Source: an uncultured Pseudomonadota bacterium
Lineage (GTDB): Bacteria; Babelota; Babeliae; Babelales; Vermiphilaceae
Length of the DNA stretch: 64,000 nucleotides
Reading direction: 5' to 3'
Assembly: GCA_964417975.1 (NCBI GenBank)
Contig: CAYQJQ010000003.1
Span: 35,413-99,412 of the forward strand
Shown: positions 39,440-61,277 of the stretch, in pieces
Layout of the letters: every line of letters begins with the position of its first letter
How positions within the stretch are numbered: the stretch's first letter is position 1
The notes under the pieces: generated by a model
The model's input: only the letters and a program-made list of their open reading frames with translations
Told to the model about the DNA's origin: nothing
Database searches by the model: none
Position numbers and translations under genes: made by a program

Positions 39440-40006
39440 TTATTCGAACATAAATGGTTCAATAGTTAACTTATTATTAAAGTGCTTATCTTCTGTTGGA
39501 CTGTAATCTAAAAATATTTTGAAAATATTGTAGACTAACTGACCCGCTCCAAAATCAATGGTCGTACGCATTGGACGGACTTCTGGTGTATCTGTTGGCA
39601 CAACGTCATTTACAAAAAAACCATCATTTCTTCTTCTGAATGGCATTTCTTTTTCAACCTCTACACTCATATCCTTATCAAATAGTCCCATTTTAATATG
39701 TTCAGCTTTAATAGAATCAACCAGCACATCAGTATTAGGAATAAATTGGAATGATTTCTCTGTTACCGCAGTCATGCTACCCAAGAGTAACCCTTGGCGT
39801 TGCCACGGCACCGGAATCGATTTAACCTCTCCCGCAGGAATGACGACACGAAGGTCGTCGCCAATTTGTGCCACTAGCCTAAAACTTACCAAGATGTCGT
39901 AGGGCGTATAGTTAAACACTTTAAATGCAGTACGCGCCTCTAAAGAGCCTATCACTACAAAAAGTAGCCCAAAAAAACAATAGCAATACTTATTTATATC
40001 AAGCAT
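39440..40006 (-). CDS. small secreted protein, member B of the local family (unknown function)
   Basis: The ATG at 40006 is preceded by the SD ggaggaa, whereas the ORF-track start at 40027 is a TTG. It has a signal peptide (MLDINKYCYCFFGLLFVVIGSLEA), then FKVFNYTPYDILVSFRL...VIPAGE. Confidence 0.5.
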   Translation of the reverse strand: MLDINKYCYCFFGLLFVVIGSLEARTAFKVFNYTPYDILVSFRLVAQIGDDLRVVIPAGEVKSIPVPWQRQGLLLGSMTAVTEKSFQFIPNTDVLVDSIKAEHIKMGLFDKDMSVEVEKEMPFRRRNDGFFVNDVVPTDTPEVRPMRTTIDFGAGQLVYNIFKIFLDYSPTEDKHFNNKLTIEPFMFE

Positions 40007-40158
40007 ACTGCTTCCTCCATTTAGCAATTAATTATTATACCCCATATCAATGGTAACAAAGTATATTATTAAACAGCAATAGTTAAACTATTGATTTTAC
40101 TTCAAGGATATCTATACCATGATAATGTAGTTGTTTATTAAAAATAATGGAGGATATA

Positions 40159-40560
40159 ATGAAACTATTACAAAGATTAAACGTGATGTTGGTAGTTGCC
40201 TGCGGGTTCATGTTCGCGGCGCATAACCTGTCTGCCTATACGCATAACATTAAGAACGGAACTCAATGTCTGGCAAACGTTCATGTGCAGTATGCTGCTT
40301 GTAAAGACGATCACTTTCAATTACAAAAATACAGCTCTCAATCAATTAGTGCTGGGGGATGTATTTTAGAGAAAGTAGAGGCAACAGTGGAAGAACCACA
40401 AGAGAATACCCCGGGAAGTGCCATTACTGGTTCATCTAAAATATACCGCGCAAGCTCGTATAATGGACCATTCACTGGTAGCGGAACCTGGATTATAAGT
40501 GGACCATTTAAAGAAGAAACGGATGCAAATCGATATAAAATTACTCGCTTAGTTCAGTAA
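40159..40560 (+). CDS. small secreted protein, possible distant member C of the local family
   Basis: The ATG at 40159 follows the SD ggagga; the ORF-track start is 40147. It has a signal peptide (MKLLQRLNVMLVVACGFMFAAHNLSA), then YTHNIKNGTQCLANVHVQY...SISAGG, which has the same spacing pattern as members A and B. Confidence 0.45.
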   Translation: MKLLQRLNVMLVVACGFMFAAHNLSAYTHNIKNGTQCLANVHVQYAACKDDHFQLQKYSSQSISAGGCILEKVEATVEEPQENTPGSAITGSSKIYRASSYNGPFTGSGTWIISGPFKEETDANRYKITRLVQ

Positions 40561-42283: not shown

Positions 42284-44002
42284 ATGTCACTTAAAAACGA
42301 ACAATTATTAGAACAGATGCGCCATTCGGCGGCCCATCTTCTTGCTCATGCAGTACTTGAACTGTTTCCAGACACATTACTGACCATTGGTCCTGCCACC
42401 AAAGAAGGCTTCTTTTTTGATTTTGTACCCGGTGCACGTAATTTTAAACAGGAGGACTTAGCAAGCATTGAATCACGCATGCATGATATAGTAAAACGGA
42501 ACCTCATCATTACGCATGAACAAGTTGAAAAAGATGTTGCATATCAACTGTATCATAATAATCCGTTCAAACGGGAATTAATCGAAGCAATCCCAGGAAC
42601 CACCGTAGGCATTGCACGACAGGGAGAATTTTTCGATTTATGTAGAGGTGGACACGTTGCTTGTACAGGCGATATAAAACATTTTAAACTCCTTGCTATC
42701 TCAGGTTCATACTGGCGCGCCGATAGAGATAATCAACCACTGCAACGCATATCAGGAACAGCCTTTTTGACCGCACAGGACCTTGCAGATTTTGAACAAC
42801 GTATCATTGATGCACAATTATATGATCACCGCGCTTTAGGAAAAGAATTAGACCTGTTTTCATTCAGCGATGATGCACCAGGGTTCCCCTTTTACCACCC
42901 CAACGGTAAAATCGTTATGAATGTGCTCACTAACTACCTCCGCAATACATTATCAACTCATGGATACGTCGAGGTTTCTACGCCGCAAATGCTCAATGCT
43001 GATTTGTGGAAACGTTCTGGACACTATGATCACTACAAACAAAATATGTATTTTTGCACCATCGAAGATCAGCTCTTTGCATTAAAACCGATGAACTGCC
43101 CAGGATCAATTATTATTTATAAGCATAGACCACGCTCATACCGAGAACTTCCATTACGGCTTGCTGAATTCGGATTAGTACATCGGTATGAATTATCTGG
43201 TGTATTACATGGACTATTCAGAGTACGCGCCTTTACCATAGACGATGGCCATATTTATTGCACACCAGCTCAACTAGAATCAGAAGTATGCCTTGCAATA
43301 CAACTAACCTACGAGGTATTGCGTAGATTTAAGTTTACCGATATTTTAGTCTATCTTTCAACACGTCCAGCTAATTCAATGGGCAGTGATGAGCTCTGGG
43401 AAAAAGCAACCAATGCACTTGCTCAAGGCCTCAATAAATCATCGATCCCCTTTACCATTTGCGAAGGGGAAGGTGCCTTTTATGGACCAAAAATTGAGTT
43501 TCATATATTAGATTCAATGGGACGTACATGGCAATGTAGTACCGTACAAATAGACTTTTTCCAACCACAAAATTTTGATTTATCGTATGTGTCTTCAGAA
43601 GGAACTAAAGAGCACCCGGTCATTGTCCACCGTGCAATTTATGGATCATTTGAGCGCTTTTTTGGCATCCTTTTAGAACATTACAAAGGAAAATTACCAT
43701 TCTGGCTATCTCCCGTTCAGGTTGCTATTTTGCCAGTTACTGAAGCACAGAGCGAATATGCTCAGAAAACCCAAGCCCTATTACAGCAACAAAATATTCG
43801 TACAAGAATTGACACAACTGGCGATCAGCTTTCCAGTCAAATTAAACGTGCTCAATTACAAAAAATTCCATGGATGATTATTGTAGGAGCAAAAGAAGTA
43901 GCAAATGAAACTTATACTATTCGCTACCTTGACGGAAAACAGGAACAGATTGGATCCAAAGAAGCATTGATACAAAAAGTTAGTGCTGCATTAAGCGAAT
44001 AA
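42284..44002 (+). CDS. thrS: threonyl-tRNA synthetase lacking the N-terminal TGS domain
   Basis: It starts directly at the editing/SAD domain (MRHSAAHLLAHAV, the HxxxH motif). Class II motifs and an anticodon-binding domain follow. At 572 aa it is shorter than the roughly 640 aa typical length. Confidence 0.95.
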   Translation: MSLKNEQLLEQMRHSAAHLLAHAVLELFPDTLLTIGPATKEGFFFDFVPGARNFKQEDLASIESRMHDIVKRNLIITHEQVEKDVAYQLYHNNPFKRELIEAIPGTTVGIARQGEFFDLCRGGHVACTGDIKHFKLLAISGSYWRADRDNQPLQRISGTAFLTAQDLADFEQRIIDAQLYDHRALGKELDLFSFSDDAPGFPFYHPNGKIVMNVLTNYLRNTLSTHGYVEVSTPQMLNADLWKRSGHYDHYKQNMYFCTIEDQLFALKPMNCPGSIIIYKHRPRSYRELPLRLAEFGLVHRYELSGVLHGLFRVRAFTIDDGHIYCTPAQLESEVCLAIQLTYEVLRRFKFTDILVYLSTRPANSMGSDELWEKATNALAQGLNKSSIPFTICEGEGAFYGPKIEFHILDSMGRTWQCSTVQIDFFQPQNFDLSYVSSEGTKEHPVIVHRAIYGSFERFFGILLEHYKGKLPFWLSPVQVAILPVTEAQSEYAQKTQALLQQQNIRTRIDTTGDQLSSQIKRAQLQKIPWMIIVGAKEVANETYTIRYLDGKQEQIGSKEALIQKVSAALSE

Positions 44003-44021
44003 AGAGTATAATCATTGCGCG

Positions 44022-44073
44022 TGCGATATGAATTGACAGAGAAAATCATGTTACTCTCGCTGATCATATCGCA
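44022..44073. terminator. possible terminator hairpin between convergent thrS and nth (large loop)
   Basis: A 10-bp inverted repeat, tgcgatatga (44022-44031) / tcatatcgca (44064-44073), separated by 32 nt. There is no clear U-tract. Confidence 0.3.
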
Positions 44074-44095
44074 GTGCATGCTTAATTATCGAATA

Positions 44096-44764
44096 CTAAC
44101 GGCTTTTTATAACCCCAATTTTGGGGCATAGATTATTGATCAAACATGATGAGCACCGAGGAGAAACTGGCGTACAAATATTTTGCCCCCACATAACGAG
44201 TAACGTATTAAGTGATATCCAATACTCAGGGGGCACGATCTTTTTCAATGCCTGTTCTGTTTGTTCAGGCTTTTTCGTAGTCACCCATCCAAGGCGATTA
44301 GCAACTTTATGCACATGCGTATCGACACACAATGCCGGTATACCAAAAGCAATCCCGCGCACCAAATTCATGGTCTTTCGCCCCACACCAGGAAATGACA
44401 GGAGAACATGTTCAGATTGAGGTACAATACTATCAAATTCGTAAACCAGACGCATTGAAATAGCATGAATACGTAATGCTTTTTGACGATAAAAACAGAC
44501 TGGGTAAATAGTAGTTGCAATAAGTTCAACCGGTAAAGCAATAAATTCTTTTGGTGTTTTTGCCAAAGAAAAAAGACGAACCGAAGCGGGAAAAGATACC
44601 GTGTCTTTTGTACGTAAACTCAGAATACAGGATACGAGAATTAAAAAAGGATCACGTCCATAAATCTCCACTACTTTATCTGCAGCGGGTAACACCATGT
44701 AACGTGTATCCTTTTTTAATCGTTCTAAAATATCCACAATCCTATCCATGTAAGTATTAAACAT
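44096..44764 (-). CDS. nth: endonuclease III
   Basis: It has a helix-hairpin-helix (FPGVGRKTMNLV), the catalytic LCVDTHV region and the 4Fe-4S ligands C-x6-C-x2-C-x5-C (CTPVSPRCSSCLINNLC). Confidence 0.9.
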   Translation of the reverse strand: MFNTYMDRIVDILERLKKDTRYMVLPAADKVVEIYGRDPFLILVSCILSLRTKDTVSFPASVRLFSLAKTPKEFIALPVELIATTIYPVCFYRQKALRIHAISMRLVYEFDSIVPQSEHVLLSFPGVGRKTMNLVRGIAFGIPALCVDTHVHKVANRLGWVTTKKPEQTEQALKKIVPPEYWISLNTLLVMWGQNICTPVSPRCSSCLINNLCPKIGVIKSR

Positions 44765-45017
44765 ACATTAACCTAGATAGCTACATGACTTGTTGAAGTA
44801 TTTGTAGTCACATTAAAAATGTGTTAGATTGGAAAATGCAGACTTATGTTTTAATTCGTAGGAGGTAAATTTCCGACTATAACTAAAACATACAATGCAC
44901 ATGATAAAATACGAGCACAATTGAGAGAGAACATAGCAGTTACTCCTTTGACACAATACAGTTATACGTTAAAAACCACCCACAGTATAACTATAATTAA
45001 CGGCAATAGCAATAAAC

Positions 45018-47759
45018 ATGGTAATTTTTTCTACCTTTATCGATATTTTAGATTATTTTTTTGGGAATAATTATGTCCTTATTGGTATTTTTTCGGTGCT
45101 TTTTGTAATTAAAGCTGTTATAGCCTTTTTTTTAATTACCAATTTATTCTATTCAAAAGAATCTAATAAACACGTAAAACTGCTTTTTGGCGTTGTCGCA
45201 TCATCTCTTTTTTGTGATATCCCATGGATATTATCACCGTTTAAACCGTATCTAGACTACAGAATATTAAATTTTTTTGTACGATTTTCATGGATAACAA
45301 CTATAAGTATATATCAAATATTAACGATATTTATCAATAACTTAAAAAATCCATCTAAACACACTTCCTCGTCTCGTGTACAAAGAATATTAATAATTAT
45401 TGGCATAATAATTACATTACCATTTTTCTATATCATCATCACCGATTTTAATTGTCCAAGCTTAAAATGTAAAAATATATTTGAATTTATATTGTCAAAA
45501 GTAACCTCATTTTATACCTGTTGTTTATTAATGCCCATAAGTCTAATCATAACTTTTTATAACCTCAAAAAAGATAATCTACCCCGAATTCTCAAAAAAC
45601 AACTATATCTTTTCTGTGGCGCTATTGTAATTCCAATGTGGATATCAGATCTGATTCAAGCCCTATCAATTATCATTGGTCCTACTACACCATGGATTAA
45701 TACTAACTACACTTTTGTTAATATTACTAATTTACTTATTACCTACGGTATTCTCTACTCTGCACGCAAAATGGTTGGTCTACGCTTCATGAATTTACGA
45801 GAGCAGGTGAGCCTACCGGCTACGGCAAATTTTGTCCATAACACCAAAGATATTTTGCTACAATTAAGCCAAGTAAATTCAGAAACAGAGCTATCTCGAT
45901 TAACCCAAACATTTTTCCGTGACTCATTTCAGATCCCCCTGAGTAAAGTACTAGTGTACATTCGACCATCGAACATACCTACAGTCCCATTAGCAGAATT
46001 AACGGAAAATATTCGCCATACAGATCATCACGAACACCTATTTTCCTTAATAGAGCAATTTATTTATACCAATAAAGGAACCCTTGGTTCTGAACAAAAA
46101 ATATTGGTATATGATGAGCTCATTTTTAGTAACTTCTATGAACAAAACAACAACAGAACACAATCAATCAAGTTACTCGAAACCATTGGGGCTGAAGTAC
46201 TTATCCCGATTTACGTAAAAAACAATATCATAGCCTGTATTATTATAGAACGAAATGCAAAACCCGATAACGAGCTATACAGTGAATCTGAATGTGATCA
46301 CATGCTTATTTTTGCAAGCTATTTAGGTAATTTGCTGCACTTATTGCAACATAGAAACCTTGAAATGCTCATTGCCCAAGAAAAAAAATTAACTACAGAA
46401 TTACACACCCAACAAAAAGAATTAAATCAATACAAAGAAAGTATCCACTCATTTTTGTATGATAGTGACGTAAAATTAATTGGTATTATTTTTTATAAAG
46501 GACGTCATTTTATATTTGGTAATCAGGCCGCAAAACAGATTATCAAAGTCCCCATCAATACACAACGCGGCCATCCACTCAGTAAAACCTTATTGAAAGT
46601 CGCACATCACGTAGAGGAATATCGCATACATCACACTGTCTTTGCAAAAGATGTCGATGGTAGAACTATTGTACTCTCCGGCGTACCACATCTTGAAGAA
46701 AACACGGTGATTATAATTGTATCCTACCCAGATGTTGCCGATATTATCAAAAAGCAGATGTCACTGCTTAATAACCCATCCGAACGGGATTATTTACTTC
46801 ATCTTGAATCAACGCAAGCGGGATCAATTATCAAACAATTCTTACCTGCAGACACACCTACTGTGATACAAATAAAAATTGATATTTTAAAAACAAGCCT
46901 CAGTGATAATGTCGTATTACTTAATGTACACGAGGATGATATAATCCCTATTTTAAGTATCATACAACGTATTAGTGGCCGAGATACTATGTACACATTA
47001 GATGTCAAAGCTCAACAAACCAGCAATAATATTACTATTGACCTTTTTGGCATCAATCCATTATTTGTAAATAACAATCAAAAAACATCAATAATGGTTC
47101 AACTTGCACACTGTGGGCTATTATTTATCAACCATATTGACCGTCTCAACCTAGAAACACAATTACATTTAGTTGAATTAATTAAGTATGGGTATTACCG
47201 ACTCTTTAAATCTGATAAAAAAGAATCTTCTAATGTACGTATCGTCGCAACCACAAGCCGCCCACTTGAAGAACTCATGCAACAAAATCTTATTTTGCCT
47301 GATCTCTACACCTTTTTAAAAACCAATGTCCTTGCAATACCACCATTATATAAAGTGCCTGCCACCGAACTAGAACAGCTTGCGGAAAGCCATTTAGAAT
47401 TGATGATAAAGCAGGACAGCATGAAGCATTTCATACAACTGACTGAGGTAGAAAAAAAACAGTTGAAGGATGGAAAAATTGCAAGCTTTTCTAAGTTAAA
47501 ACAATTAATCGAACTCATCGTTTTGAAAAAAACATATAAATATAGTCCCGATAATACCCATTCACAGGAACCCGTACGTGAAAATAATACCTCACATTCC
47601 CTTGAACATGCTATTAGGTTAGGTAAATTAGCATTAAAGGAAAAACCGCTCATGGAATTACTCTGGAAAACCTATAAAAATCAATATAAAATAGCCACGC
47701 TGCTGGGGGTTAACCGTTCATCAGTCAACAGGCGGTGCAAGATGTATAATTTAGAATAA
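45018..47759 (+). CDS. polytopic membrane sensor fused to GAF-like, PAS-like, degenerate sigma-54-activator AAA+ and Fis-type HTH domains
   Basis: Residues 1-255 contain about 7 hydrophobic helices. Residues 285-445 are GAF-like (..EVLIPIYVKNNIIACIIIER..ECDHMLIFASYLGNLLHLL). Residues 620-800 align by eye with the NtrC central domain but lack Walker A/B and GAFTGA. The C-terminal segment YKIATLLGVNRSSVNRRCKMYNL resembles the Fis/NtrC HTH. Confidence 0.65.
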   Translation: MVIFSTFIDILDYFFGNNYVLIGIFSVLFVIKAVIAFFLITNLFYSKESNKHVKLLFGVVASSLFCDIPWILSPFKPYLDYRILNFFVRFSWITTISIYQILTIFINNLKNPSKHTSSSRVQRILIIIGIIITLPFFYIIITDFNCPSLKCKNIFEFILSKVTSFYTCCLLMPISLIITFYNLKKDNLPRILKKQLYLFCGAIVIPMWISDLIQALSIIIGPTTPWINTNYTFVNITNLLITYGILYSARKMVGLRFMNLREQVSLPATANFVHNTKDILLQLSQVNSETELSRLTQTFFRDSFQIPLSKVLVYIRPSNIPTVPLAELTENIRHTDHHEHLFSLIEQFIYTNKGTLGSEQKILVYDELIFSNFYEQNNNRTQSIKLLETIGAEVLIPIYVKNNIIACIIIERNAKPDNELYSESECDHMLIFASYLGNLLHLLQHRNLEMLIAQEKKLTTELHTQQKELNQYKESIHSFLYDSDVKLIGIIFYKGRHFIFGNQAAKQIIKVPINTQRGHPLSKTLLKVAHHVEEYRIHHTVFAKDVDGRTIVLSGVPHLEENTVIIIVSYPDVADIIKKQMSLLNNPSERDYLLHLESTQAGSIIKQFLPADTPTVIQIKIDILKTSLSDNVVLLNVHEDDIIPILSIIQRISGRDTMYTLDVKAQQTSNNITIDLFGINPLFVNNNQKTSIMVQLAHCGLLFINHIDRLNLETQLHLVELIKYGYYRLFKSDKKESSNVRIVATTSRPLEELMQQNLILPDLYTFLKTNVLAIPPLYKVPATELEQLAESHLELMIKQDSMKHFIQLTEVEKKQLKDGKIASFSKLKQLIELIVLKKTYKYSPDNTHSQEPVRENNTSHSLEHAIRLGKLALKEKPLMELLWKTYKNQYKIATLLGVNRSSVNRRCKMYNLE

Positions 47760-47885
47760 TAAAAACTTTATAATGCATAGTACACAGAGATATTCTATAC
47801 TGTAGCCGTTATTACTATTGTCAATGATTATTACATAAATAAAATAATTGCTATAATAATCAGTTATAAGTAAGGATACATCGCC

Positions 47886-48815
47886 ATGTTGCTATTCGAA
47901 TTTACCGAAAAGATAGAAAAATTTATTAGTTTTTTAACCATAGAAAAAAATGTTTCTCACCATACCATACGAGCTTATCGTACTGATCTCAAACAATTTA
48001 CTGAATTTTGGGAGCAATCGATAACTCCTGCCGAGCAGACACAATTATCACTCAGGCAGATTATAGAACGGTATCTTGTGAGCCTTTTTTACAAAAAAAT
48101 CGATAAATCATCTATAGCACGCAAATTTTCCTGCTTTAAATCATTTGAACGTTATTTAGAACAGGAAGGCATCTATCTCAAACTACATCTCAAACGACCA
48201 CGTCTTGATAAGAAATTGCCTGTTTATTTAAGCGTTGAAGAAATATCACACTTACTGGATGCGGTAAAAGATACCGAGTTACCTACCCGCTATCCCCTCC
48301 GAGACAAAGCAATTTTAGAATTATTATATGCTACCGGGATACGATGTTCTGAATTAGTGAATATTCGGTTTGGCGATATAGATATGAATGAAAAAACCAT
48401 TAGAATCAAAGGCAAGGGAAACAAAGAACGCATCGTATTATTTGGCAAACAAGCAGCACTCAAGCTATCATTATATTTACAACAGGAACGTCCACATATC
48501 CAACGAGCTGAAGATTTTTTGTTACTCAATTATCGCAATGAACCGCTCACTAGCCGTTCTGTTCAGCGTATTATTGCAATGTTTCGACCATTTTTAAAAA
48601 TAGACCGGCCGATTAGTCCACATAAAATACGACATACCTTTGCAACACATTTACTTAACCAGGGAGTTGATTTACGCGTGGTGCAAGAATTATTGGGACA
48701 TCAAGCAGTTTCTAGTACTGAAAAATATACACACGTGTCCCTTGAGGAATTGACCACAATGTGCAATGAAATACATCCCATTAATGACATTATCCAAAAA
48801 CGCCAACAAAAGTAA
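47886..48815 (+). CDS. tyrosine recombinase, XerC/XerD family (second copy)
   Basis: TIRAYRTDLKQF, RCSELVNIRFGDID, HKIRHTFATHLL and LLGHQAVSSTEKYTHV are present; 309 aa. Confidence 0.85.
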   Translation: MLLFEFTEKIEKFISFLTIEKNVSHHTIRAYRTDLKQFTEFWEQSITPAEQTQLSLRQIIERYLVSLFYKKIDKSSIARKFSCFKSFERYLEQEGIYLKLHLKRPRLDKKLPVYLSVEEISHLLDAVKDTELPTRYPLRDKAILELLYATGIRCSELVNIRFGDIDMNEKTIRIKGKGNKERIVLFGKQAALKLSLYLQQERPHIQRAEDFLLLNYRNEPLTSRSVQRIIAMFRPFLKIDRPISPHKIRHTFATHLLNQGVDLRVVQELLGHQAVSSTEKYTHVSLEELTTMCNEIHPINDIIQKRQQK

Positions 48816-60179: not shown

Positions 60180-61277
60180 CTAAGTTTCAAACTCACTTAT
60201 AGGAAGCGTATCATGTGCAATAATACCACTACCCAAACATATCGTATCGACATAGACTGCTGCAAATTGCCCTGGCGCAATACCTTGGTCACGCTCCCCC
60301 AGATATAAAATCGATTTCGATTCATCTTGTGGCACATGCATTGCAGGAATCATAACTGGACCATGGCGCATTTTAATCAAAACATCCTGTTTTTTTGGTT
60401 TACCAGCAATCCAATTGCACGATTCAATAACAACCAGATCCCGTTTCTTTTCATCACTATAGTAGTTTTTTGACACATACACACAATTGGCAACGGTATC
60501 TTTTGCAACGACATACCACGGACCGCCACCAAGACCAATGCCTTGACGCTGGCCAATAGTATAAAACCAATATCCGTCATGCATACCTAACACAGTACCG
60601 GTCTCATATTCACGCAACTCGCCTTTCTTGGTGCCCAAATAATGCCCAACAAATTCCTTGAATTTCAGCTTACCCAAAAAACAGATTCCCTGACTATCTT
60701 TTCGATCCTTATTAGGGAGATTATGCATGTGGGCATATTCACGTACCTGCCACTTATACAGATGACCAATGGGAAATATAAGTCGTGCAAGTTGCTGTTG
60801 TGTTAGGTGCGATAGAAAATATGATTGATCTTTCACTGGATCAGGAGCCTGCACCAATACATACTGATTACCGATACGCTTTTTTTGCGCATAGTGACCA
60901 CTGGCAATTGCATCATATCCCGTTCCGATATGTTTTAAAAAAACACCAAACTTAATTCTACTATTACACAAGACATCAGGATTAGGAGTACGCCCAGCTT
61001 CTACCTCACGAATAGTATGCAATACCACCTCATCATGGTACTCTTTTTGCAAGGAAACTATTTCTAACGGGACCCCTACCTGCTGGCATACCGCCTGAAC
61101 ATACTGCAGATCCTCTTGCCACGGACAATTACCTAAGTAACTCAGTTCATCCTCAAGCCAGATTTTTAAGTAATAGGCCGTCAGATCATGCCCTTCAGCT
61201 TTCAAGAGATGTAAAGCAACCGAGCTATCAACCCCACCGGAAACAAGCACTGCAATTTTCATACGTTCACCATTCAT
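60180..61277 (-). CDS. mnmA: tRNA-specific 2-thiouridylase
   Basis: The PP-loop is KIAVLVSGGVDSSVA, and the KDSQGICFLG motif is present. The start is possibly the Met at 61262 (MKIAVLV). Confidence 0.9.
   Translation of the reverse strand: MNGERMKIAVLVSGGVDSSVALHLLKAEGHDLTAYYLKIWLEDELSYLGNCPWQEDLQYVQAVCQQVGVPLEIVSLQKEYHDEVVLHTIREVEAGRTPNPDVLCNSRIKFGVFLKHIGTGYDAIASGHYAQKKRIGNQYVLVQAPDPVKDQSYFLSHLTQQQLARLIFPIGHLYKWQVREYAHMHNLPNKDRKDSQGICFLGKLKFKEFVGHYLGTKKGELREYETGTVLGMHDGYWFYTIGQRQGIGLGGGPWYVVAKDTVANCVYVSKNYYSDEKKRDLVVIESCNWIAGKPKKQDVLIKMRHGPVMIPAMHVPQDESKSILYLGERDQGIAPGQFAAVYVDTICLGSGIIAHDTLPISEFET

What the first reader, a model, noticed from the sequence alone, without database searches (positions are those of the whole stretch)
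45018..47759. Membrane-anchored NtrC-type enhancer-binding-protein look-alike with all ATPase motifs degenerate
The architecture is about 7 TM helices, then GAF-like, PAS-like, a sigma-54-interaction-like AAA+ domain, and a Fis-type HTH. The central domain aligns by eye with the bEBP consensus. SDNVVLLNVHEDDIIPILSIIQRISGRDTMYTLDV compares with SD.tVLI.GEsGTGKElvAraIH..S.R...PFv.vN. GLLFINHIDRLNLETQLHLVELI compares with GTLFLDEIgel.l..Q.KLLRvLQ. NVRIVATTSRPLEELMQQNLILPDLYTFLKTNVLAIPPL compares with dVRiIAATNRdLee.v..G.FReDLYYRLnV..i.lPPL. However, Walker A (GxxGxGK) is replaced by NVHEDDI and the Walker B DE by NH. The GAFTGA sigma-54 contact loop is also absent (ELFGHEKGAFTGA corresponds to DLFGINPLFVNNN). 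Such a protein cannot hydrolyse ATP or remodel sigma-54 holoenzyme in the canonical way. It has nevertheless kept a full-length 913-aa ORF in AT-rich DNA and an intact-looking HTH, so it may be a membrane-tethered one-component DNA-binding regulator derived from a bEBP.
Basis: partly seen in the sequence, partly recalled or inferred. Interest (0 to 1): 0.65.

Follow-up and report, generated by a model that had tools for sequence, protein, structure and literature searches.

The report
Membrane-anchored regulator with dead ATPase domain
This gene encodes a membrane-embedded regulator, conserved across the Dependentiae (TM6) phylum of intracellular parasites, that is built from a sigma-54 activator whose ATP-burning engine has been completely but carefully disabled, so it probably links a seven-helix membrane sensor directly to DNA binding without using ATP.

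Summary
ORF 45018-47759 (+) encodes a 913-aa protein. It has seven TM helices (N-out/C-in), two alpha/beta sensor-like domains joined by a coiled coil, a bEBP-type AAA+ domain, and a Fis-type HTH.

The AAA+ domain matches Pfam Sigma54_activat at E = 2.9e-11 and aligns to PspF, NtrC1 and NifA with Foldseek TM-scores of 0.65-0.72. Walker A, Walker B, the GAFTGA loop, both arginine fingers and sensor II are all absent. They are absent in all 117 full-length relatives I aligned, and each is replaced by a different, conserved residue (for example G41 to Asp in 117/117).

The pseudo-AAA+ region is under strong purifying selection (dN/dS 0.04-0.07). The family is found at 194 places in species-representative genomes, and every informative title is Dependentiae/Babeliales/TM6. 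Synteny is fixed (divergent nth upstream, xerC and PBP2 downstream), and tandem paralogue pairs are frequent (32/74 loci).

This is therefore an ancient, phylum-wide pseudo-ATPase, not a decaying copy. It goes further than known atypical, sigma-70-type EBPs (DhaR, TyrR, NtrX, VpsR), which keep Walker A, and it is fused to an unclassified 7TM module. The GAF and PAS labels rest on predicted topology only. Whether Dependentiae have rpoN could not be tested.

The parts
45018..47759 (+). Whole gene: 913-aa 7TM / pseudo-AAA+ / HTH regulator (stop codon included)
   Evidence: ORF list. More than 120 full-length homologues at 35-50% identity. AF2 model with pLDDT 81.7.
45018..45788 (+). N-terminal membrane domain, aa 1-257: a short external helix plus seven TM helices (18-45, 51-75, 81-110, 120-142, 154-185, 190-220, 231-256), oriented N-out/C-in
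   Evidence: AF2 models. Positive-inside rule, 10.6 against 3.2 K+R. Conserved intramembrane polar residues K32, D67, W70, R89, W92, Q100, E107, Q195, Q214. No Pfam match. A profile search finds about 350 clusters, all with this architecture or colinear fragments of it in the top 150.
45843..46352 (+). First cytoplasmic alpha/beta sensor-like domain, aa 276-445 ('GAF-like', unverified)
   Evidence: AF2 secondary structure. Pfam GAF_2 reaches only 0.048, below threshold, over residues 367-440. No PDB sequence match.
46353..46472 (+). Coiled-coil connector, aa 446-485, highly conserved (HQEINQYKESIRSFL)
   Evidence: Long helix 448-479 in the AF2 model, with low pLDDT over 469-485. Mean column identity 78%.
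46473..46733 (+). Second sensor-like domain, aa 486-572, with PAS-like strand order (2 strands, helices, 3 strands; unverified)
   Evidence: AF2 DSSP. 71% column identity. No Pfam or PDB sequence match.
46734..46913 (+). Helical linker, aa 573-632 (DPSxWDYLLYLETT...), leading into the AAA+ domain
   Evidence: AF2 helices 573-628. 80% column identity, among the highest in the protein.
46914..47546 (+). Pseudo-AAA+ domain of bEBP type, aa 633-843 (alpha/beta core 633-778, lid 779-843)
   Evidence: Pfam Sigma54_activat 2.9e-11. Foldseek TM-score 0.65-0.72 to PspF, NtrC1 and NifA. hhalign to DhaR, probability 96.9%. dN/dS 0.04-0.07.
46920..46955 (+). Former Walker A / P-loop, aa 635-646, LNVHEDDIIPIL (family consensus L[ED]M[PA][ED][ED]DLxPTV)
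   Evidence: Alignment to PspF 35-46. G41 becomes Asp in 117/117; K42 becomes Leu, Ile or Val in 113/117 (Ala or Thr in the other four) and is Lys in none.
47040..47078 (+). Former L1 / GAFTGA loop, aa 675-687, DLFGINPLFVNNN
   Evidence: Family consensus FGINP-[IL]FG, one residue shorter than FGHEAGAFTGA. None of 117 has GAFTGA.
47115..47138 (+). Former Walker B strand, aa 700-707, GLLFINHI (DE replaced by N705-H706; family consensus [QK]N)
   Evidence: E108 becomes Asn in 112/117. Direct comparison with PspF, DhaR and TyrR.
47589..47756 (+). C-terminal Fis-type helix-turn-helix, aa 858-913 (...NQYKIATLLGVNRSSVNRRCKMYNLE)
   Evidence: The profile matches only Fis (0.003), a Fis-like protein and the TyrR DBD in the PDB. 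NCBIfam Fis 0.0025. V898, N899, R900, S901, R905 and R906 are invariant. 80% column identity.
44950..45017 (+). Promoter-proximal leader. It holds a sigma-70-like TTAAAA-17-TATAAT (44969-44997) flanked by an imperfect inverted repeat (44957-44967 / 44985-44995)
   Evidence: Consensus scan and repeat finder. This stretch is conserved with the nearest relative's locus L087 although the proteins are only 50% identical. Function is not shown.
44096..44764 (-). Divergently transcribed endonuclease III (nth), the invariant upstream neighbour
   Evidence: ORF list. HhH-GPD Pfam hit in related loci. Divergent and closer than 600 bp in 65 of the 66 loci where nth was found.

Best explanation
The gene encodes a membrane-integral, single-polypeptide signal transducer that is specific to the phylum Dependentiae (TM6).

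Anatomy (shown or well supported): a seven-helix membrane bundle faces outward with only very short loops and has a conserved polar core. It is followed in the cytoplasm by two small alpha/beta sensor-like domains joined by a conserved coiled coil, then a helical linker, then an AAA+ domain descended from a sigma-54 activator (bEBP), and finally a Fis-type helix-turn-helix.

Shown: the AAA+ domain keeps its fold but has lost every residue needed to bind or hydrolyse ATP (Walker A, Walker B, sensor I in part, arginine fingers, sensor II). It has also lost the GAFTGA loop that contacts sigma-54. These replacements are fixed across the family and under strong purifying selection.

Inferred: the protein cannot remodel sigma-54 holoenzyme. 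It instead acts like the 'atypical' EBPs (DhaR, TyrR, NtrX, VpsR), as a sequence-specific activator or repressor at ordinary sigma-70-type promoters.

Inferred mechanism: a signal perceived within or at the membrane by the 7TM bundle travels through the TM7-proximal segment, the sensor-like domains and the coiled coil, as happens in DhaR. This changes the oligomeric state or geometry of the dead AAA+ scaffold, and with it the spacing or availability of the HTH pairs that bind DNA at the membrane. Where two tandem paralogues exist, they have divergent 7TM domains but near-identical output domains, so they probably form mixed oligomers that integrate two inputs.
For: Architecture.

bEBP descent of the central domain: Pfam 2.9e-11 in 52/52 members, PDB sequence hits, Foldseek hits including the atypical EBPs NtrX and VpsR, and hhalign to DhaR at 96.9% probability.

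Family-wide, patterned loss of all catalytic and sigma-54-contact residues: 117 members; side-by-side with genome-derived PspF, DhaR and TyrR.

Functional constraint:
- Per-domain conservation is AAA+ 0.70 and HTH 0.80, against 7TM 0.47.
- dN/dS is 0.04-0.07 for the AAA+ region at dS 0.5-1.0.
- There are 194 places in species-representative genomes with fixed synteny.

DNA binding: the Fis/TyrR-type HTH profile match runs through the recognition helix, and NRSS..RR is invariant.

Receptor-like behaviour of the 7TM module: it diverges 10-20 times faster than the rest in recent paralogue pairs and occurs only in this architecture.

No sign of a sigma-54 system in what could be searched:
- -24/-12 matches in the window are at chance (38 against 33.6 expected).
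- No RpoN and no GAFTGA-like motif in 1.21 Mb of held Dependentiae DNA.
- No RpoN among RpoN-sized ORFs of the window.

Precedent:
- DhaR is a sigma-70-dependent EBP with GAF and PAS-like domains and coiled-coil signalling (PMC10084136).
- VpsR and other atypical EBPs lack GAFTGA, and some have non-consensus Walker motifs (PMC6158489).
- EBPs lacking GAFTGA regulate sigma-70 promoters (bioRxiv 10.1101/2023.06.06.543975).
Against: - No experiment exists. ATP binding, oligomeric state, DNA binding and target genes are all inferred.
- Whether Dependentiae genomes encode sigma-54, or a canonical bEBP partner, could not be tested genome-wide.
- No conserved operator was found upstream of the gene across 101 family members, so autoregulation and the binding motif are unknown.
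- The GAF and PAS assignments have no profile support, and hhalign to DhaR does not extend into its sensor domains.
- A DNA-binding domain about 600 residues from the membrane could equally work only after proteolytic release.
- pTM for the full-length model is 0.51, so the arrangement between domains is not reliable.
Confidence: 0.62

Rival explanations
1. Release by regulated proteolysis. The 7TM domain is only a tether. On signal, the disordered juxtamembrane linker (aa 258-275) or a TM helix is cleaved, and the soluble GAF-like / PAS-like / pseudo-AAA+ / HTH fragment leaves the membrane to act as a conventional cytoplasmic regulator, in the manner of SREBP, ATF6 or anti-sigma systems.
For: The only long low-confidence segment next to the membrane is 258-271. 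The DNA-binding domain lies more than 600 residues from TM7. FtsH is a conserved neighbour in the region, but that is weak evidence because it is a housekeeping gene.
Against: The RFLN motif after TM7 and the start of the linker are conserved rather than variable (F257 and N259 are invariant in A3), which suggests a signal-transmitting element. No site-2 protease or other dedicated protease is linked to the locus. Known bacterial membrane-bound regulators such as ToxR and CadC bind DNA while still tethered (established knowledge).
Confidence: 0.15
2. Still part of a sigma-54 circuit. The dead AAA+ domain acts as an anti-activator or as a regulatory subunit. It would either co-assemble with a canonical bEBP into mixed rings, or occupy enhancer sites to block that bEBP.
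For: The AAA+ fold and its subunit-interface elements are conserved. Mixed rings with inactive subunits are known in other AAA+ systems (general knowledge). Genome-wide absence of rpoN was not established.
Against: No RpoN, no GAFTGA-bearing protein and no excess of -24/-12 sites in the DNA that could be searched. Both arginine fingers, which act in trans within a ring, are lost. Where paralogues are present, both copies are dead. The genome papers read here either name or count only a handful of regulators (merR, yebC and fmdB in C. destructans; five in B. massiliensis) or say nothing about regulation (PMC4776705), and none of the three uses the word sigma for a sigma factor.
Confidence: 0.08
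3. Not a gene-specific regulator but a membrane-nucleoid tether or chromosome-organising factor. A Fis-like HTH anchored in the membrane would position DNA near the envelope, for example during division or the developmental cycle.
For: The HTH is closest to Fis, a nucleoid-associated protein. The gene is invariably flanked by DNA-maintenance and envelope genes: nth upstream, xerC and PBP2 downstream. No specific operator was found.
Against: All bEBP-family HTHs are of the Fis type and are sequence-specific (established knowledge). The elaborate and fast-evolving sensor module, and the paralogue diversification, fit signal-dependent regulation better than a structural role. The neighbouring genes are housekeeping genes that are syntenic for other reasons.
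Confidence: 0.1
4. Strain-specific decaying gene (pseudogenisation of a once-functional bEBP in this genome only).
For: The window's copy is the most divergent of 117 members, with 49 deviations at 193 highly conserved columns. The gene also lies in one of the lowest-GC stretches of the window.
Against: The 913-codon frame is intact in DNA of 34% GC. The same motif losses are present in all 117 relatives. Many of the window's deviations are shared with its nearest relative P0002 and are conservative. HTH invariants are retained. Synteny and the upstream leader are conserved with P0002's locus.
Confidence: 0.01

Closest known systems
E. coli DhaR (atypical, sigma-70-dependent EBP)
   Same: - It is the best NCBIfam match (E 2.9e-14 over aa 668-912), and hhalign gives 96.9% probability over the AAA+ core.
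- It has the same order of cytoplasmic modules: sensor domain, coiled coil, PAS-like domain, AAA+, Fis-type HTH (PMC10084136).
- It lacks the sigma-54-binding loop.
- In my alignment its Walker B is EK, R162 is S, R168 is A and R227 is F. The 'FS' at the R162 position is shared with this family.
   Different: - DhaR keeps an intact Walker A (GEEGVGK).
- DhaR is soluble, with no membrane domain.
- Its GAF and PAS domains are not detectably related to residues 263-632 here.
- It senses by binding DhaK and DhaL, whereas no such partners are linked to this locus.
Other atypical EBPs: TyrR/PhhR, Brucella NtrX, V. cholerae VpsR, R. capsulatus HupR and NtrC, Caulobacter NtrC
   Same: - They have a bEBP-type AAA+ domain without GAFTGA, plus a C-terminal Fis-type HTH.
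- They act at sigma-70 promoters as activators or repressors.
- NtrX and VpsR are among the best structural matches.
- The TyrR DNA-binding domain is among the few PDB matches to the HTH profile.
   Different: - The characterised members still bind nucleotide or need Walker A. TyrR keeps Walker A and B and both arginine fingers. NtrX was crystallised with ATP and ADP. Caulobacter NtrC needs K178 and D235. VpsR changes only Walker B.
- Their inputs are receiver or ACT/PAS domains, and none is membrane-integral.
- Here every nucleotide-binding element is gone.
Canonical bEBPs (PspF, NtrC1, NifA, DmpR)
   Same: The AAA+ fold including the pre-sensor-I insertion, conserved structural motifs (GTLF strand, VRxxxxT sensor-I strand, the FG at the base of L1), the lid domain and the HTH.
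   Different: No Walker A, Walker B, GAFTGA, arginine fingers or sensor II arginine. It therefore cannot work as an ATP-driven remodeller of sigma-54 holoenzyme (inference).
Membrane-bound one-component regulators (ToxR, CadC, TcpP) and bacterial 7TM receptors with cytoplasmic signalling modules (7TMR-DISM class)
   Same: A sensor in the membrane and a DNA-binding or signalling output in the same polypeptide. The 7TM domain sits N-terminal to the cytoplasmic modules.
   Different: - ToxR-type proteins have one TM helix, an N-terminal winged-helix DBD and a periplasmic sensor.
- 7TMR-DISM proteins have large extracellular domains, and their outputs are kinases or cyclases.
- No Pfam 7TM receptor family matches this protein, and its external loops are only 5-11 residues long.
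Class A GPCRs (structural resemblance only)
   Same: They are the best solved-structure matches to the 7TM model: the same seven-helix bundle connectivity, N-out/C-in (E 3e-4, TM-score 0.5-0.63).
   Different: Rmsd is 5-8 A and sequence identity 9-17%, with no sequence similarity, so there is no evidence of common descent. I treat this as topology only.

Membership tests
bEBP / Sigma54_activat (PF00158) | AAA+ domain homologous to the sigma-54 interaction domain | tested here: met
   Pfam 43.8 bits against a cut-off of 20.2, E 2.9e-11. 52/52 members match. Foldseek TM-score 0.65-0.72 to PspF, NtrC1 and NifA.
bEBP / Sigma54_activat (PF00158) | Walker A GxxxxGK[ST] (ATP binding) | tested here: not met
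   The window has NVHEDDII. 0/117 have the lysine, and G41 is Asp in 117/117. The Pfam match starts only at profile position 62.
bEBP / Sigma54_activat (PF00158) | Walker B hhhhDE (ATP hydrolysis) | tested here: not met
   The window has N705-H706. The family consensus is [QK]N, and E108 is Asn in 112/117.
bEBP / Sigma54_activat (PF00158) | GAFTGA L1 loop (sigma-54 contact) | tested here: not met
   FGINP-[IL]FG, one residue shorter, with 0/117 carrying GAFTGA. No G[AS]F[TS]GA anywhere in 1.21 Mb of held Dependentiae DNA.
bEBP / Sigma54_activat (PF00158) | Arginine fingers (PspF R162, R168) and sensor II arginine (R227) | tested here: not met
   R162 is Ser in 105/117 (Leu in the window). R168 is Glu in 100/117 (Phe in the window). 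R227 is Gln or His in most members (Ser in the window).
bEBP / Sigma54_activat (PF00158) | Works with sigma-54 (rpoN) at -24/-12 promoters | not testable with these tools
   Only partial checks were possible. Window -24/-12 matches are at chance. No RpoN in the window or in 84 related loci. Whole Dependentiae genomes could not be scanned, and the literature searches found nothing.
bEBP / Sigma54_activat (PF00158) | C-terminal Fis-type HTH | tested here: met
   Profile against the PDB: Fis 0.003, TyrR DBD 0.11, and nothing else relevant. NCBIfam Fis 0.0025. Pfam HTH_8 hits only 1/52 members at 0.0024.
Atypical (sigma-70-type) EBPs: DhaR, TyrR, NtrX, VpsR, HupR | bEBP-type AAA+ domain lacking GAFTGA, plus an HTH | tested here: met
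Atypical (sigma-70-type) EBPs: DhaR, TyrR, NtrX, VpsR, HupR | Retained nucleotide-binding site (Walker A), as in the characterised members | tested here: not met
   DhaR (GEEGVGK) and TyrR (GDTGTGK) keep it; this family does not.
Atypical (sigma-70-type) EBPs: DhaR, TyrR, NtrX, VpsR, HupR | Regulates sigma-70-dependent promoters | not testable with these tools
   Only a sigma-70-like hexamer pair upstream of its own gene, which is not evidence of function.
GAF / PAS sensor domains | Significant match to GAF or PAS profiles, or to solved GAF or PAS structures | tested here: not met
   GAF_2 at 0.048, below threshold. 0/52 members hit at E <= 0.01. The profile of aa 263-632 finds nothing in the PDB. 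hhalign to DhaR does not cover its GAF and PAS domains.
Bacterial 7TM receptors (7TMR-DISM and related Pfam families) | Seven TM helices N-terminal to cytoplasmic signalling domains | tested here: met
   AF2 and the positive-inside rule.
Bacterial 7TM receptors (7TMR-DISM and related Pfam families) | Sequence match to a described 7TM receptor family, or presence of extracellular DISMED-type domains | tested here: not met
   No Pfam hit in residues 1-260 even at E <= 10, and none in 52 members. The external segments are 5-15 residues long.

The most novel reading that the evidence does not exclude
A seven-helix receptor with GPCR-like topology is hard-wired, through a catalytically dead AAA+ scaffold, to a DNA-binding domain. 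It serves as the phylum-wide master switch by which Dependentiae sense their host or compartment and set their developmental programme. It would be one of only about five transcription regulators in these genomes, and duplicated copies with re-tuned 7TM sensors would form mixed oligomers. This would be the first membrane-integral EBP, and the first EBP in which the AAA+ ring is purely a nucleotide-free allosteric scaffold.
Probability: 0.25. Interest if true: 0.8.

Novelty: new variant of a known kind. Interest (0 to 1): 0.6.

Why it matters
- **An endpoint for EBP evolution.** Atypical EBPs are discussed as evolutionary links between sigma-54 and sigma-70 regulation (PMC6158489). This family supplies the missing extreme: an EBP that has shed every nucleotide-binding and sigma-54-contact residue, yet keeps the fold under strong selection in an entire phylum. 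That makes it possible to ask what an AAA+ ring does in transcription when it cannot use ATP.
- **A likely central regulator in a poorly known phylum.** Dependentiae are widespread, almost uncultured obligate parasites of protists with very few regulators (five predicted in Babela massiliensis, PMC4378268). A universally conserved, often duplicated, receptor-fused DNA-binding protein is therefore a prime candidate for controlling host sensing or the infection cycle. The cultured isolate Noda2021 carries the gene pair, so experiments are feasible.
- **Annotation.** Automated pipelines label these proteins 'sigma 54-interacting transcriptional regulator' or 'regulator with GAF, ATPase and Fis domain'. 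Both the sigma-54 and the ATPase parts of those names are almost certainly wrong.

Tried and rejected
1. **Phylogenetic footprinting.** I searched 300 bp upstream of 101 distinct family genes for a dyad-symmetric operator or an enriched k-mer. There was no phylum-wide motif. The only dyad was TAGCAT-N7-ATGCTA at about -220 in four related loci. The GC-rich k-mers that appeared enriched were not followed up; they may come from neighbouring coding or RNA sequence.
2. **GAF and PAS confirmation.** I tried Pfam on 52 members, a profile of aa 263-632 against PDB sequences and hhalign to DhaR. All were negative, so I keep these only as topology labels.
3. **Homology of the 7TM module.** There are no Pfam hits. 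The Foldseek matches to GPCRs are judged to be generic seven-helix topology (rmsd 5-8 A), not homology.
4. **Other architectures carrying the 7TM module.** The top 150 of 388 hits are full-length or mostly colinear fragments. A few shorter proteins have unaligned C-terminal stretches of 200-350 residues (P0151, P0195, P0259), which I did not examine. The weaker tail of the hit list was not visible.
5. **Sigma-54 in Dependentiae.**
   - Two literature searches found nothing usable.
   - The genome papers do not discuss sigma factors.
   - A 2025 survey of sigma-54 regulons does not cover the phylum.
   - The -24/-12 scan of the window is at chance.
   - tblastn with E. coli RpoN finds nothing in 1.21 Mb. 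That DNA is mostly the same syntenic region in different genomes, so the test has little power.
6. **Pseudogene or strain-specific decay.** Rejected.
7. **Paralogue elsewhere in the window.** None found.

Full report
**1. The observation**

Pfam assigns residues 668-769 to Sigma54_activat (E 2.9e-11, 43.8 bits against a gathering score of 20.2) and to Sigma54_activ_2. The match begins only at profile position 62, so the P-loop part of the model is not recognised. NCBIfam's best matches are all EBPs, led by DhaR (2.9e-14, aa 668-912) and PspF. PDB sequence hits are NtrC1, NtrC4 and LuxO at around 1e-9.

An AlphaFold2 model built from 73 family sequences is confident (mean pLDDT 81.7). Its AAA+ domain superposes on PspF, NtrC1, NifA, FleQ and on the atypical EBPs NtrX and VpsR, with target-normalised TM-scores of 0.65-0.72 for isolated AAA+ domains.

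**2. The motifs**

I aligned 117 full-length relatives with E. coli PspF. I later checked that the PspF sequence I had used is identical to the genome copy. The window protein compares with PspF as follows:

| PspF element | Window protein | Family (117 members) |
|---|---|---|
| Walker A GERGTGKE | NVHEDDII | G41 is Asp in 117/117; K42 is Leu, Ile or Val in 113/117 and never Lys |
| GAFTGA loop | PLFVNN | FGINP-[IL]FG, one residue shorter; none has GAFTGA |
| Walker B DE | N705-H706 | E108 is Asn in 112/117 |
| Sensor I N149 | S747 | Asn in 77/117; otherwise His, Asp, Ser, Thr or Gln |
| Arginine finger R162 | L760 | Ser in 105/117 |
| Arginine finger R168 | F766 | Glu in 100/117 |
| Sensor II R227 | S825 | Gln or His in most |

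No family member has an intact version of any lost motif. The positions are not random either, because each is occupied by a different, conserved residue. This is the signature of an old, selected pseudo-enzyme rather than decay.

**3. Selection and distribution**

Mean column identity by domain:

| Domain | Mean column identity |
|---|---|
| 7TM | 0.47 |
| GAF-like | 0.57 |
| AAA+ lid | 0.63 |
| AAA+ core | 0.70 |
| PAS-like | 0.71 |
| Coiled coil | 0.78 |
| Helical linker | 0.80 |
| HTH | 0.80 |

Nei-Gojobori dN/dS on the closest gene pairs gives 0.04-0.07 for the AAA+ region where dS is 0.5-1.0.

A scan of one genome per GTDB species found 194 places that encode a relative. Every informative title among the 80 kept reads Dependentiae, Babeliales or TM6, and the set includes the cultured isolate Noda2021.

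Synteny is very stable. Endonuclease III (nth) is divergent and within 600 bp in 65 of the 66 loci where it was found. xerC and PBP2 follow downstream in 55 of 73 loci, and the region also holds ThrRS and PhoH.

In 32 of 74 loci there are two co-directional tandem copies. The window has one.

**4. The other domains**

*7TM domain.* Residues 1-257 form a short external helix plus seven long TM helices, modelled with pLDDT 85.7 and pTM 0.83 on their own. Family-wide K+R counts are 10.6 on the predicted cytoplasmic side and 3.2 outside. This gives an N-out/C-in orientation, which puts everything downstream in the cytoplasm.

The external loops are 5-11 residues long. Conserved polar residues lie inside the bundle: K32, D67, W70, R89, W92, Q100, E107, Q195 and Q214. 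The signal is therefore probably sensed within the membrane or in a small pocket.

No Pfam family matches this region in any of 52 members. An exhaustive profile search of 1.84 billion representatives found 388 proteins (346 at E <= 1e-10). The top 150 are all about 900 aa long, or are shorter proteins that are mostly colinear fragments. The best solved-structure matches are class A GPCRs (E 3e-4, TM-score 0.5-0.63, rmsd 5-8 A). I read that as shared seven-helix topology only.

In recent tandem paralogue pairs the 7TM domain has diverged 10-20 times more than the rest. In L006, for example, dN is 0.22 for the 7TM domain against 0.012-0.015 elsewhere. That is what a receptor module changing specificity would do, although gene conversion of the 3' part is an alternative.

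*Middle region.* Residues 263-632 are strongly conserved but have no sequence relative among solved structures and no GAF or PAS profile match in any member. The only trace is a sub-threshold GAF_2 hit (0.048) in the window protein. The predicted strand order of 489-569 is PAS-like, and 276-444 is a helix-flanked sheet compatible with GAF. These labels remain unverified.

*C-terminus.* A profile of the last 62 residues matches only Fis (0.003), a Fis-like protein and the TyrR DNA-binding domain in the PDB. The alignment runs through the recognition helix, and V898-N899-R900-S901 and R905-R906 are invariant.

**5. How it most likely works**

Shown: the architecture, the bEBP ancestry of the central domain, the complete and ancient loss of its catalytic and sigma-54-contact residues, and purifying selection on what remains.

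Inferred:
- Without a P-loop lysine, Walker B acids, arginine fingers or GAFTGA, the domain cannot drive sigma-54 open-complex formation.
- The protein therefore acts as the atypical EBPs do, as a sequence-specific activator or repressor at sigma-70-type promoters.
- The dead AAA+ domain serves as an oligomerisation and allosteric scaffold between sensor and HTH.

The nearest mechanistic precedent is DhaR. [quoted passage not shown] 2014). The equivalent coiled coil here (aa 446-485) is one of the best-conserved segments.

My side-by-side alignment shows a graded series:
- TyrR has lost only GAFTGA.
- DhaR has lost GAFTGA, Walker B (EK in place of DE), both arginine fingers (S and A) and sensor II (F), but keeps Walker A.
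- The Dependentiae family has lost everything, and it shares the 'FS' at the R162 position with DhaR.

However, hhalign relates the family to DhaR only over the AAA+ core (probability 96.9%). Common descent of the sensor parts is not supported.

**6. Sigma-54**

I could only partly answer.
- TGGCAC-N5-TTGCW with up to two mismatches occurs 38 times in the window against 33.6 expected. The single exact match (60330-60345) lies inside a gene on the opposite strand.
- None of the RpoN-sized ORFs in the window is RpoN.
- tblastn with E. coli RpoN finds nothing (E <= 1), and no GAFTGA-like peptide exists, in 1.21 Mb of Dependentiae DNA. That DNA is largely the same syntenic region from many genomes, so the test is weak.
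- Literature searches found no statement on sigma-54 in this phylum.

Genome-wide absence or presence of rpoN remains the main open point.

**7. The window's own copy**

It is the most divergent of the 117 members, with 49 deviations at 193 columns that are at least 90% conserved, against a median of 5. Its nearest relative, P0002 at 50% identity, is second with 42. Many of the changes are shared and most are conservative.

The locus of P0002 has the same gene order. About 70 bp upstream of the start codon are conserved between the two. That stretch contains a sigma-70-like TTAAAA-17-TATAAT and an imperfect inverted repeat.

I interpret this as a deep or fast-evolving sublineage, not a dying gene. 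The reading frame is intact in 34% GC DNA, and the HTH invariants are kept.

**8. Comparison with what is known, and novelty**

'Atypical EBPs' that lack GAFTGA and work with sigma-70 are an established class: TyrR, PhhR, HupR, HsfA, NtrX, VpsR, DhaR, and the Rhodobacter and Caulobacter NtrC proteins. Some have non-consensus Walker motifs.

Three things are new here:
- the complete loss of all nucleotide-binding elements with conserved replacements;
- fusion to an unclassified 7TM membrane module, which makes it a membrane-integral EBP relative;
- its status as a universally conserved and frequently duplicated core gene of a whole phylum of obligate intracellular parasites, which otherwise have very few regulators (five predicted in Babela, PMC4378268).

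I found no paper describing it. Database names for family members ('sigma 54-interacting transcriptional regulator', 'regulator with GAF, ATPase and Fis domain') are automated and misleading.

I classify it as a new variant of a known kind and score interest at 0.6. A bEBP specialist would find a nucleotide-free, membrane-anchored EBP notable rather than shocking. For Dependentiae biology it is a strong candidate for a central regulator, and one that can now be tested directly.

Noticed in passing
Related loci L003-L076 (for example L029 5997 and 8933; L006 2904 and 5997): Tandem, co-directional paralogue pairs of this gene occur in 32 of 74 Dependentiae loci, including the cultured isolate Noda2021. 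In recent pairs the 7TM domain has diverged 10-20 times more than the rest of the protein. The cause could be diversifying sensors or gene conversion of the 3' part.
   Followed up: partly
window 44950-45017 and L087 2530-2594: About 70 bp immediately upstream of the start codon are conserved between the window and its nearest relative's contig, although the proteins are only 50% identical. The stretch includes a sigma-70-like TTAAAA-17-TATAAT, an imperfect inverted repeat (TACAGTTATAC / GTATAACTATA) and a conserved CAATAGCAATAA just before the ATG, with no obvious Shine-Dalgarno sequence.
   Followed up: partly
window 60330-60345 (+): A perfect sigma-54 consensus, TGGCACATGCATTGCA, lies inside the minus-strand ORF 60180..61277. 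The overall count of near-matches in the window is at chance, so it is probably fortuitous.
   Followed up: partly
L014, L017, L039, L066, about 220 bp upstream of the family gene: A perfect dyad, TAGCAT-N7-ATGCTA, sits at the same relative position in four related loci, in or near the nth end of the divergent intergenic region. It is clade-specific and not found phylum-wide.
   Followed up: no
window 39440-40027 (-) and 40147-40560 (+): Two small divergent ORFs (195 and 137 aa) have N-terminal hydrophobic, signal-like segments and lie next to the PhoH-like gene. Their function is unknown and no family search was run on them.
   Followed up: no
window 48766-48815: The listed PBP2 (transpeptidase) ORF overlaps the end of xerC by 50 nt. 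The true start may be a downstream ATG, because related loci show xerC and PBP2 separated by a few bases.
   Followed up: no
L001 2133-3456, L003 1-6010, L001 12828-14492: Eukaryote-like genes (RING/zf-C3HC4, ankyrin-repeat, Sel1 and WD40 beta-propeller proteins) are interspersed around the conserved locus in related genomes. This is typical of host-interacting Dependentiae. L003 also carries a CdiI-type immunity gene next to a 1464-aa ORF.
   Followed up: no
window 44001-48000: The gene lies in one of the lowest-GC stretches of the window (0.34 against roughly 0.39 on average), and its product is the most divergent member of its family. This may reflect the Ile/Leu/Phe/Asn/Lys-rich composition or faster evolution in this lineage.
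   Followed up: partly
P0151, P0195, P0259: A few shorter proteins that carry the 7TM module have 200-350 C-terminal residues not aligned to the window protein in a single BLAST segment. They could be divergent family members or different architectures.
   Followed up: no
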